Counted from the first letter of the stretch, positions 24,256-25,548 are shown. The stretch is DNA of 32,000 nucleotides from Candidatus Jordarchaeales archaeon (GCA_038889235.1 JAWAHN010000001.1:824499-856498); one strand, 5' to 3'. Translations and numbers: made by a program. Notes: a model not told the origin generated them from the sequence alone.

Positions 24256-25548
24256 TAAGCCTCCACCTTCCCGAAACAATGCGGCTTACAGCAACTCTTT
24301 GACCGTCCTCAGCGCACACAGGACGGCGTAGCTTAATTTCAACCTCGTCGCCCCTAACCGACGAAATGGTGCCTACGGTTACAGCCGACCCGACATTAAG
24401 CATCAGCGACTCGTTAACATGCACGTTCTCCACCTTTGCAAGCTCCTCGCTCCCCACAACTCTTTCCATTAAGTGAAGCTCGATGCACAAGTCATCGCGC
24501 ACAGGTGGAAGCGTTCCGGGGGCTCCAACAACGTTTCCTATGAGACCATCAGCCTTCGTCAAAGACGGGTCAAGTTTTGTTCCAATACCGATCAAGCCTC
24601 CAGGCAGAGCCTCTTCAAGCCACACGTCACCCGCCTGCAAACTGACAACGTCGGCGTAGATGGGCTCAAATCCCCCCTTACCAGCAACCCCAGGACGTAT
24701 TTCTATTTCGTCGCCAACTCTAACCTTGCCCTGAATTATTGTTCCGCCTATGACTCCTCCAACAAGATCCTTCGGCTTAGTCCCTGGCTTGTTAACATCA
24801 AATGACCTAGCAATGTACATTCTCAGAGGCTTACTTGGGTCCCTGACAGGGTCAGGGATGTGTTTCTCCATGAAGTACAATAAAACGTCTAAGTTGACCC
24901 CTAAGACCGCTGAGACAGGGATGATGGGAGCGTCTTCAGCGAAAGTTCCACTAATAAACTTCTTAATCTGTCTGAAGTTTTCCATCGCCTTCTCCCTTGA
25001 GACAAGCTCGACCTTGTTCTGAACGATAACAATGTTCTTCACACCAACGATTTCCAAGGCTGCAAAATGTTCCCGCGTCTGCGGTTGAGGACACGGCTCA
25101 TTAGCAGCAATAACGAAAATGCAACCATCCATAAGTGACGCACCACTAATCATAGTGGCCATAAGTCTCTCATGGCCAGGCGAGTCGACGAAACTAATCT
25201 TGCGCACAAACTCGGCTTCTCCTCCACACTTCGGGCACTTCCACCCTCCAGCCATAGCCAGAGTGAAATAGTTACCAGGAGGGGGACAGGACGGGCACCT
25301 TAAAACAACAGCGTCAGCGTAACCCAGCTTAATTGTAACCCCACGGCGCTTTTCCTCACTATGACGCGCGGCCCAAATGCCCGTTAAAGCTTGTACAAGC
25401 GTGGTTTTTGGCCCGTGGAAACCTATCCCCACGGATTGCCATGATCAACGTCTCCGGCGCCAACTGTTCAGCAACAACTAGCGTGTCCGGCCGTTCCCAC
25501 GGAAACCAAGGCCTGCGTAGTCATGGCTTTTTTACAAGCTTCACTCAA
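24233..25548 (-). CDS. eif2g: Translation initiation factor aIF2 gamma, spliced: complement(join(24233..25406,25436..25451,25485..25548)), 417 aa
   Basis: Spliced N-terminus MSEACKKAMTTQALVSVGTAG-H-VDHG-K-TTLVQALTG, followed by IKLGYAD, Zn ribbon, DSPGHE, QNKVE and RWRLIG. Alternative start ATG 25524. Confidence 0.95.
25407..25435 (-). other. BHB-type mRNA intron 2 in eIF2-gamma (29 nt)
   Basis: Central helix UGGC/GCCA (perfect), bulges AA^U and AA^A, hairpin CCGUGGGGA-UAGG-UUUCCACGG; in-frame UAG. Splicing gives GGC AAA ACC (G-K-T). Confidence 0.93.
25452..25484 (-). other. BHB-type mRNA intron 1 in eIF2-gamma (33 nt)
   Basis: Central helix CCGG/CCGG, bulges AC^A and AG^A, 11-bp hairpin CGCUAGUUGUU-GCUG-AACAGUUGGCG; in-frame UGA. 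Splicing gives GGA CAC GTT (G-H-V). Confidence 0.93.

What the first reader, a model, noticed from the sequence alone, without database searches (positions are those of the whole stretch)
25452..25484. eIF2-gamma intron 1: in-frame (33 nt) but made obligatory by a UGA inside the P-loop
Seen: GTAGH is followed by ASCC*TVGAGD and then VDHG. The insert is an 11-bp hairpin with a CCGG/CCGG central helix, ACA/AGA bulges and an AACG/CGUU outer helix (one extra G). Because the length is 3n, only the in-frame UGA prevents a P-loop-disrupted read-through protein. This also shows that stop-free 3n introns elsewhere would be invisible to ORF callers.
Basis: partly seen in the sequence, partly recalled or inferred. 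Interest (0 to 1): 0.85.

Follow-up and report, generated by a model that had tools for sequence, protein, structure and literature searches.

The report
tRNA-type intron in Asgard aIF2-gamma
The only gene for translation initiation factor aIF2-gamma in this Asgard archaeon (Candidatus Jordarchaeum) is interrupted, inside the codons of its GTP-binding loop, by a 33-base insert shaped like the introns normally cut out of tRNAs (and by a second, 29-base one 16 bases further on), so the protein can very probably be made only after the tRNA-splicing enzymes repair its mRNA; published examples of this inside an archaeal protein gene are, as far as I could find, limited to cbf5.

Summary
Observation confirmed. 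On the minus strand, window 25484..25452 is a 33-nt in-frame insert with a UGA, between GTAGH and VDHG of aIF2-gamma. It folds as outer helix, 4-bp CCGG/CCGG helix, two 3-nt bulges and an 11-bp hairpin.

A second insert (29 nt, 25435..25407) follows a 16-nt micro-exon. Removing both restores a 409-aa protein with GHVDHGKT.

Support is comparative:
- The insert is identical in four assemblies.
- Two related alleles carry it at 30 and 34 nt with pairing kept. Three alleles lack it at exactly the predicted junction.
- The tiny exons change only synonymously, and exon 3 has dN/dS 0.02-0.08.
- This is the only aIF2-gamma gene. The genome encodes an alpha/beta-type EndA pair and RtcB.

Lengths vary, an in-frame stop has chance probability 0.48, and read-through would stop at the UAG in the second insert. 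Its corollary holds: one strain's second insert is 30 nt and stop-free, and a gene caller read through it.

The scan has noted many such introns in this genome before. Verdict: new member of the cbf5-type kind.

The parts
25485..25524 (-). Exon 1 of aIF2-gamma (40 nt): ATG plus codons for MTTQALVSVGTAG and the first base of the His codon.
   Evidence: Across the three intron-bearing alleles, codons 3-13 show six variable codons, all synonymous.
25452..25484 (-). Intron 1 (the finding): a 33-nt BHB intron, in frame, with UGA at 25470..25468. Inner 11-bp hairpin 25483-25473 with 25468-25458; loop 25472-25469.
   Evidence: Fold. Genome scanner hit at L=33, inner 11 bp, outer 4 bp. Homologous inserts of 30 and 34 nt keep the pairing. 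Cleanly absent from L003, L040 and L004.
25447..25495 (-). Whole hBHBh' motif of intron 1: outer helix 25495-25492 with 25450-25447; unpaired G 25491; central helix 25490-25487 with 25457-25454; bulges 25486-25484 and 25453-25451.
   Evidence: MFE and centroid are identical; the central helix is 100% paired in three alleles, with one C-G to U-A double change.
25436..25451 (-). Micro-exon 2 (16 nt): last two bases of the His codon, then Val-Asp-His-Gly, then the first two bases of the Lys codon.
   Evidence: The only difference among alleles is GTT/GTG, which is synonymous.
25407..25435 (-). Intron 2: a 29-nt frame-shifting BHB-like intron. Central helix UGGC/GCCA, bulges AAU and AAA, 9-bp hairpin, no clear outer helix (relaxed form). 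It holds an in-frame UAG.
   Evidence: Present in all six Jordarchaeaceae alleles at 29-31 nt, with the central helix always paired (U-A, U-G, C-G variants).
24233..25406 (-). Exon 3 of aIF2-gamma: last base of the Lys codon through the stop. The callable ORF (24233..25432) starts artificially at a GTG inside intron 2.
   Evidence: PDB hits at E=2.9e-160 from chain residue 21 onward. NCBIfam aIF2-gamma equivalogs match from profile position 16-20. dN/dS 0.02-0.08.

Best explanation
The 33-nt insert is an archaeal bulge-helix-bulge (tRNA-type) intron in the pre-mRNA of the single aIF2-gamma gene of a Candidatus Jordarchaeum genome.

Proposed mechanism:
1. The transcript folds so that exon and intron bases together form a 4-bp helix flanked by two 3-nt bulges.
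2. The splicing endonuclease EndA cuts two nucleotides into each bulge. Here EndA is a catalytic alpha subunit plus a beta subunit that lacks the catalytic His.
3. RtcB joins the exons, and the intron is released, probably as a circle.
4. The same happens at a second, 29-nt intron 16 nt downstream.
5. Only the doubly spliced mRNA encodes the GHVDHGKT P-loop and the 409-aa protein.

Shown here: the anatomy, the exact junction, conservation and covariation, intron-less alleles, coding constraint, single copy, and presence of the enzymes.

Inferred: that cleavage and ligation actually occur, and that EndA and RtcB are the enzymes that do it.
For: 1. Geometry and register. The canonical cuts reproduce the conserved GHVDHG exactly.
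2. Not an artefact. The identical sequence is present in four independent assemblies, and 11 contigs carry the same exon-3 protein.
3. Intron-less alleles. L003, L040 and L004 read GTAGHVDHG with nothing between, at the predicted junction. 24 more distant relatives do the same.
4. Structure is kept while sequence and length change (33, 34 and 30 nt). 92.9% of cells pair against 22-56% in slid controls. The central helix is 100% paired with one C-G to U-A double change. Six hairpin pairs change on one side only, through wobble pairs.
5. Coding constraint. All six variable codons in exon-1 codons 3-13, and the one in the micro-exon, are synonymous. Exon 3 has dN/dS 0.02-0.08.
6. It is the only aIF2-gamma. 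The next-best GTPase is SelB.
7. Machinery is present: two EndA paralogues and one RtcB. One paralogue matches the A. pernix and P. aerophilum alpha subunits at E=4e-47. The other has Ala at the catalytic His position.
8. Same-window company: cbf5 and kae1 are each split into adjacent ORFs with contiguous Pfam coverage. ARAGORN finds only 7 intron-free tRNA genes in the genome.
Against: There is no direct RNA evidence for this gene.

The motif is not textbook-perfect. An extra unpaired G faces the 3' bulge. The outer helix is weak in the 30-nt and 34-nt alleles (75% paired). The 34-nt allele needs a 4-nt 3' bulge.

With only three alleles, the covariation is not significant against shuffles (153 of 500).

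The folding-energy z-score is modest (-1.7).
Confidence: 0.86

Rival explanations
1. The insert is removed at the RNA level, but not by the EndA/RtcB pathway. Another endonuclease and ligase would do it, or the BHB-like fold is incidental.
For: The motif deviates from the strict form (extra G, weak outer helix in two alleles). Intron 2 lacks an outer helix.
Against: The canonical BHB cut positions give the exact junction at both introns. The 4-bp helix and 3-nt bulges are the elements conserved across alleles. An alpha/beta EndA of the broad-specificity class and RtcB are encoded. No group I or II or other RNA family matched.
Confidence: 0.05
2. Translational bypass (hopping), as in phage T4 gene 60. 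The ribosome takes off at the GGA before the insert and lands at the GGA near its end.
For: A near-repeat, GCCGGA(C/G)ACG, flanks the insert. There is a hairpin and a stop codon inside the gap.
Against: Hopping from GGA to GGA would give G-D-VDHG instead of the invariant G-H-VDHG seen in all uninterrupted relatives. The stop does not follow the take-off codon. The second insert has no matching take-off and landing pair in a usable frame. The near-repeat follows simply from a palindromic CCGG central helix with A-rich bulges.
Confidence: 0.03
3. The gene is a decaying pseudogene, or the insert is a sequencing or assembly artefact.
For: Gene callers recover only a P-loop-less 387-399-aa ORF in every close relative.
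Against: The sequence is identical in four independent assemblies. It is the sole aIF2-gamma equivalog in a 95%-complete genome. dN/dS is 0.02-0.08 over 390 codons. The 13-codon exon 1 and the 16-nt micro-exon change only synonymously.
Confidence: 0.03
4. The UGA is decoded (for example as selenocysteine) and the insert is translated as an 11-residue loop.
For: The genome encodes SelB. Jordarchaeia are reported to use selenocysteine (PMC9723677, abstract and title).
Against: Read-through runs into an in-frame UAG in the second insert and then a frameshift. The homologous insert is 34 nt, out of frame, in a strain whose exon-3 protein is 98% identical. The insert would split the GxxxxGK loop. 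Close relatives lack the insert entirely.
Confidence: 0.02

Closest known systems
BHB intron in the cbf5 (pseudouridine synthase) pre-mRNA of Crenarchaeota (Watanabe 2002, as cited in Yokobori et al. 2009, PMC2738675)
   Same: A short bulge-helix-bulge intron inside a protein-coding gene of the translation and RNA-modification machinery. It occurs in organisms with a hetero-oligomeric EndA, and presence or absence varies among close relatives (title and abstract of PMC2738675). cbf5 is itself split in this window.
   Different: A different gene (aIF2-gamma) and a different phylum (Asgard, Jordarchaeales). There are two introns in one gene, separated by a 16-nt micro-exon, both inside the codons of the P-loop. 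No splicing experiment exists for this case.
Archaeal tRNA and rRNA BHB introns (hBHBh' motif; EndA plus RtcB)
   Same: The same motif: a 4-bp helix, two 3-nt bulges on opposite strands, cuts two nucleotides into each bulge, and half of the motif supplied by exon sequence. Multiple introns per gene are known for tRNAs. The motif description is taken from the preprint 10.64898/2026.10.13.758758 as read.
   Different: The substrate is an mRNA, so the exon part of the motif is also constrained by codons. The outer helix is only 4 bp, with one extra unpaired G.
Unconventional cytoplasmic splicing of HAC1/XBP1 mRNA (IRE1 endonuclease plus a tRNA ligase such as RtcB)
   Same: Spliceosome-independent removal of a very short intron from an mRNA. 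The sites are defined by RNA structure, a tRNA-splicing ligase does the joining, and the intron decides which protein is made. PMC13149111 and PMC8718801 name this pathway.
   Different: The endonuclease is IRE1, not EndA, and the event is a regulated stress switch. No regulation is shown here.
Translational bypass of the 50-nt gap in phage T4 gene 60
   Same: A short untranslated gap with a hairpin and a stop codon inside a coding sequence, flanked by similar GGA-containing words.
   Different: Bypass would give the wrong residue (D instead of the invariant H). It cannot deal with the second insert. See the rivals.

Membership tests
Archaeal BHB (endonuclease-type) intron | Central helix of exactly 4 bp | tested here: met
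   CCGG/CCGG in the MFE fold. It is 100% paired in three alleles, including a C-G to U-A double change.
Archaeal BHB (endonuclease-type) intron | Two 3-nt bulges on opposite strands flanking the central helix | tested here: met
   ACA and AGA. Deviations: one extra unpaired G opposite the 3' bulge in all alleles, and a 4-nt 3' bulge in the 34-nt allele.
Archaeal BHB (endonuclease-type) intron | Flanking helices: h (exon with exon) and h' (intron with intron) | tested here: met
   h' is 11 bp (9-11 bp in relatives, 96.9% paired). h is 4 bp here but only 2-3 bp in the other two alleles (75% paired).
Archaeal BHB (endonuclease-type) intron | Cuts two nucleotides into each bulge yield the functional mature sequence | tested here: met
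   In silico the cuts restore GTAGHVDHG, identical to the uninterrupted relatives.
Archaeal BHB (endonuclease-type) intron | The intron is actually excised and the exons ligated in RNA | not testable with these tools
A junction search of metagenome contigs hit only unrelated bacterial SelB-type genes. No spliced-form protein or fragment is in the protein collection.
Archaeal BHB (endonuclease-type) intron | Host encodes a splicing endonuclease able to cut non-tRNA or relaxed BHB substrates, and an RtcB ligase | tested here: met
   Two PF01974 paralogues and one PF01139 gene. The alpha-like one hits 3P1Z_B at E=4.4e-47 and has Tyr, His and Lys. The second has Ala at the His position. That the pair forms an (alpha-beta)2 enzyme is inferred.
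aIF2-gamma (translation initiation factor 2, gamma subunit) | Match to curated equivalog models and solved structures over the full length, including the G1 P-loop | tested here: met
   NF003077 598 bits (cut-off 315) and TIGR03680 590 bits (cut-off 514.5), from profile position 16-20. PDB 1KK0 at E=2.9e-160 from residue 21. The missing first 15-20 positions, including GHVDHGK, are supplied by exon 1 and the micro-exon.
Selenocysteine (UGA) recoding site | Read-through of the UGA gives a continuous, conserved protein | tested here: not met
   The frame ends at UAG 16 codons later. The insert is absent, or out of frame, in close relatives. SelB is present. SECIS was not searched for.

The most novel reading that the evidence does not exclude
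Two obligatory EndA/RtcB splicing events in the P-loop codons of the sole aIF2-gamma gene may make the supply of initiator-tRNA carrier, and so global translation initiation, depend on the capacity of the tRNA-splicing system. That would be a splicing gate on translation, analogous to HAC1/XBP1. [quoted passage not shown]
Probability: 0.12. Interest if true: 0.9.

Novelty: new member of a known kind. Interest (0 to 1): 0.66.

Why it matters
In the papers I could search, endonuclease-type introns inside archaeal protein genes are documented for cbf5 only (PMC2738675). The Jordarchaeia description does not mention introns. A 2026 preprint on heavily interrupted Asgard tRNA genes does not treat mRNAs.

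This case shows an essential, single-copy translation factor of an Asgard archaeon whose GTP-binding motif exists only after two splicing events. It includes a 16-nt micro-exon.

Practical consequence: gene callers truncate the protein in every Jordarchaeaceae genome (387-399 aa, no P-loop). In one strain they translate an intron (P0122). Annotation, marker-gene phylogenies and structure predictions for this lineage therefore carry silent errors.

Evolutionary consequence: one intron is polymorphic within a genus, while the other site is occupied in two distant Asgard families. [quoted passage not shown]

Tried and rejected
No read-level test was possible.

2. I searched metagenome contigs for the exact exon1-exon2 junction with IUPAC codes at the variable sites. 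It gave three hits. All are unrelated bacterial SelB-like genes (33-37% identity) that share the GTAGHVDHGK codons.

3. I looked for a spliced product in the protein collection. The 100% cluster has three members: 399 aa, 322 aa and 410 aa. The 410-aa member is a read-through of a 3n allele of intron 2, not a spliced form. A search for short fragments over the N-terminal 70 residues found nothing near-identical.

4. A genome-wide scan for BHB geometry plus ORF restoration, with frame-offset controls, gave only a small excess (for example 95 against 65-68). The test is too crude and cannot credit this gene, because exon 1 is only 13 codons. I used it only for chance rates. A listing of top-quality motifs was mostly noise, including a GC-rich repeat on contig 2.

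5. Rfam found nothing in the window or in 25525..26965. ARAGORN found no tRNA in the window.

6. I tested whether intron 1 belongs to a mobile or repeated family. It is unique in the genome.

7. I tried to settle gain versus loss. The protein tree is unresolved within the genus. The exon-3 nucleotide tree puts the 30-nt allele with the intron-less alleles at moderate support (91.8/88), while its 5' region resembles the intron-bearing ones. Polarity is left open.

8. Census false alarms: G050 is a contig end. G064 and G142 have stops upstream of the true start.

9. MAFFT alignment of the intron-2 alleles (A2) is not in structural register, so I parsed those by hand and from per-allele folds.

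Full report
**What is there.** The gene lies on the minus strand. From the ATG at 25524 the frame reads MTTQALVSVGTAGH, then ASCC*TVGAGD, then VDHG, then NPWG*. A different frame then carries on as KTTLVQALTGIW for another 390 codons.

The long ORF (24233..25432) is aIF2-gamma. It matches Pyrococcus aIF2-gamma structures at E=2.9e-160, but only from chain residue 21 onward. It matches the NCBIfam equivalogs NF003077 and TIGR03680 well above their cut-offs, from profile position 16-20. So the first 15-20 positions, which include the G1 P-loop GHVDHGK, are missing from the callable ORF.

Removing 25484..25452 (33 nt) and 25435..25407 (29 nt) joins a 40-nt exon, a 16-nt micro-exon and the long exon. 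The result is a 409-aa protein that begins MTTQALVSVGTAGHVDHGKTTLVQ.

**Anatomy.** The 61-nt region around the first insert has an MFE structure, identical to its centroid, made of these parts: a 4-bp outer helix AACG/CGUU, one unpaired G, a 4-bp helix CCGG/CCGG, a 3-nt bulge ACA, an 11-bp hairpin with loop GCUG, and a 3-nt bulge AGA on the other strand. That is the hBHBh' layout cut by the archaeal splicing endonuclease. The motif description is as read.

Cuts two nucleotides into each bulge fall between 25485/25484 and 25452/25451.

The second insert has helix UGGC/GCCA, bulges AAU and AAA, and a 9-bp hairpin, but no convincing outer helix. The same cutting rule gives GGC AAA ACC ACG there.

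**Is it more than chance?** Folding energy alone is weak evidence (z = -1.7). The geometry in the exact register is rare. Scanning both strands of the 2.14-Mb genome over 98 lengths, a loose BHB definition matches at 7.5e-5 per position-and-length combination. A motif with an inner stem of at least 11 bp and an outer helix of at least 4 bp matches at about 1e-7. Four registers give the same product here.

**Organism.** The nearest named loci (86% identity) are MAGs titled Candidatus Jordarchaeum sp. LHC_1308 and Candidatus Jordarchaeales archaeon JZ-1. The window therefore comes from a Jordarchaeum-like Asgard archaeon. The assembly has 8 contigs and is 95% complete.

**Comparative evidence.**
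1. The region is base-for-base identical in three further independent assemblies: two GenBank MAGs and a Logan assembly. It is not an assembly artefact.
2. A same-genus genome (G003) has a 30-nt insert at the same place. The strain in SRR32459163, whose exon-3 protein is 98% identical, has a 34-nt insert.
3. Another same-genus genome (G002), the strain in SRR24425229 and the sister genus (G004) read GTAGHVDHG with nothing in between. So do 24 more distant relatives. The predicted junction is thus exactly where natural intron-less alleles join.
4. On a three-allele alignment, 92.9% of cells pair, against 22-56% when the partner columns are slid. The central helix is 100% paired, with one C-G to U-A double change and one G-C to G-U change. 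Six hairpin pairs change on one side only, through wobble pairs. The outer helix is weaker (75%). With three sequences the shuffle control is not significant (153 of 500).
5. Exons behave as codons. Among the three intron-bearing alleles, all six variable codons in exon-1 codons 3-13 are synonymous, and so is the one in the micro-exon. Exon 3 has dN/dS 0.02-0.08, even at dS 0.7-2.3.
6. The genome has no other aIF2-gamma. The next-best GTPases are SelB (TIGR00475, 307 bits, above its cut-off) and EF-1alpha.

**Machinery.** The genome encodes two EndA-family proteins and one RtcB. One EndA (196 aa) aligns without gaps to the catalytic alpha subunits of the heterotetrameric enzymes of Aeropyrum pernix (3P1Z_B, E=4.4e-47) and Pyrobaculum aerophilum, and it keeps Tyr, His and Lys. 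The other (195 aa) has Ala where the catalytic His sits, as expected of a structural beta subunit. That the pair forms the broad-specificity (alpha-beta)2 enzyme is an inference. [quoted passage not shown]

ARAGORN finds only 7 tRNA genes without introns, and 14 when canonical-position introns are allowed (10 of the 14 have one), in a genome that should hold about 45. This suggests most tRNA genes are interrupted in ways ARAGORN cannot model. It agrees with a 2026 preprint on Asgard tRNA genes.

In this same window, cbf5 and kae1 are each split into two adjacent same-strand ORFs with contiguous Pfam coverage: DKCLD | TruB_N from position 26, and TsaD 2-63 | 70-264.

The intron reading is well supported. 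The emphasis on the UGA and on the 3n length is not.
- If the UGA were read through, the frame would stop at the UAG in the second insert 16 codons on. The 29-nt insert also shifts the frame.
- Homologous inserts are 30, 33 and 34 nt long. The second intron is 29, 30, 31, 29, 29 and 30 nt in six alleles. So 3n occurs in 4 of 9 cases, close to the one-third expected by chance.
- An in-frame stop in 33 random bases has probability 0.48.
- All three alleles do keep an in-frame UGA in the hairpin loop. Common descent explains this adequately.

The corollary is borne out. In SRR32459163 the second intron is 30 nt, in frame and stop-free. The deposited gene call P0122 (410 aa) starts inside intron 1 and translates intron 2 as ten extra residues between VDHG and KTT.

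**History.** Intron 2 is present in all six Jordarchaeaceae alleles. Intron 1 is present in three alleles of one genus and absent from two others and from the sister genus.

The protein tree leaves the genus unresolved. The exon-3 nucleotide tree groups the 30-nt allele with the intron-less ones at moderate support, whereas its exon 1 and intron 2 resemble the intron-bearing alleles. Possible histories are one gain with later precise loss, or recombination in the 5' part of the gene. I cannot decide between them. Intron 1 has no other copy in the genome.

A census used an uninterrupted orthologue as query against 301 genomes of the phylum. Among the 150 best-listed matches, interruption of the P-loop codons appeared only in Jordarchaeaceae. 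All six genomes I checked in another family (f9, three genera) carry an AT-rich, frame-shifting insert of about 28-29 nt at the intron-2 site.

**What is missing.** There is no RNA evidence. An exact-junction search of metagenome contigs hit only unrelated bacterial SelB-type genes. No spliced-form protein or fragment is in the protein collection.

Earlier notes of this scan report many other BHB-split protein genes in this same genome, some said to be missing their introns in RNA-derived contigs. I verified the taxon and the split state of cbf5 and kae1. I did not verify the RNA claims.

**Literature.** The papers I could search give cbf5 of Crenarchaeota as the documented case of an archaeal protein-gene BHB intron (PMC2738675). 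The Jordarchaeia paper has no occurrence of intron, splicing, frameshift or pseudogene. The Asgard tRNA-intron preprint does not treat mRNAs. A 2026 review of non-canonical splicing mentions archaea only for tRNA.

**Verdict.** This is a real BHB intron, mechanistically of the cbf5 kind, in a new gene and phylum. The architecture is unusual: two introns and a 16-nt micro-exon inside the P-loop codons. It is a new member of a known kind. Confidence is 0.86 and interest is 0.66.

Noticed in passing
window 25407-25451 (minus strand): A second BHB-like intron (29 nt, frame-shifting, with an in-frame UAG) lies 16 nt downstream of the first. This leaves a 16-nt micro-exon that encodes the middle of the P-loop. 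The second intron is present in all six Jordarchaeaceae alleles (29-31 nt), and its central helix is always paired.
   Followed up: yes
L039:2995-3066 (Logan SRR32459163 contig); protein P0122: In this strain intron 1 is 34 nt (out of frame). Intron 2 is 30 nt, in frame and stop-free. The deposited gene call starts inside intron 1 and translates intron 2 as ten extra residues in the P-loop. It is a real case of an intron invisible to ORF callers.
   Followed up: yes
L025, L052, L053, L054, L055, L056 (family f9 of the same phylum; genera g18, g26, g32): All six genomes checked carry an AT-rich, frame-shifting insert of about 28-29 nt between GHVDHG and KTT of aIF2-gamma. This is the same site as intron 2, or one base away. 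Several fold with an AUGG/CCAU helix. It could be shared ancestry or parallel gain. The family was not named.
   Followed up: partly
window 11148-12205 (+) and 20858-21915 (-): cbf5 (DKCLD ORF | TruB_N from profile position 26 + TruB_C + PUA) and kae1 (TsaD 2-63 | TsaD 70-264) are each split into two adjacent same-strand ORFs. I did not resolve the BHB folds at these junctions.
   Followed up: partly
whole genome G000: ARAGORN detects only 7 tRNA genes without introns and 14 with canonical-position introns allowed, in a 95%-complete genome. Most tRNA genes are probably interrupted in non-canonical ways.
   Followed up: partly
G000:C1:350532-351977 (L048:733-2178, + strand): A 481-aa SelB (selenocysteine-specific elongation factor, TIGR00475 above its cut-off) is encoded, so UGA recoding machinery exists in this organism.
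   Followed up: partly
window 25525-26965: A 1.44-kb stretch between the divergent aIF2-gamma and EF-1alpha genes has no ORF over 74 aa and no Rfam match even at E=1. Its plus strand is strongly A-rich (AT skew 0.3-0.45). This is unusual for a compact archaeal genome and is unexplained.
   Followed up: partly
window 25447-25495 (minus strand): A near-direct repeat, GCCGGA(C/G)ACG, flanks intron 1. It follows from a palindromic CCGG central helix with A-rich bulges, so it need not be a trace of duplication or a target-site repeat.
   Followed up: partly
L002 (G003) against L001, L039, L003, L040: The exon-3 nucleotide tree groups L002 with the intron-1-less alleles. Its exon 1, intron 1 and intron 2 resemble the intron-1-bearing alleles. 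This may reflect recombination within the gene.
   Followed up: partly
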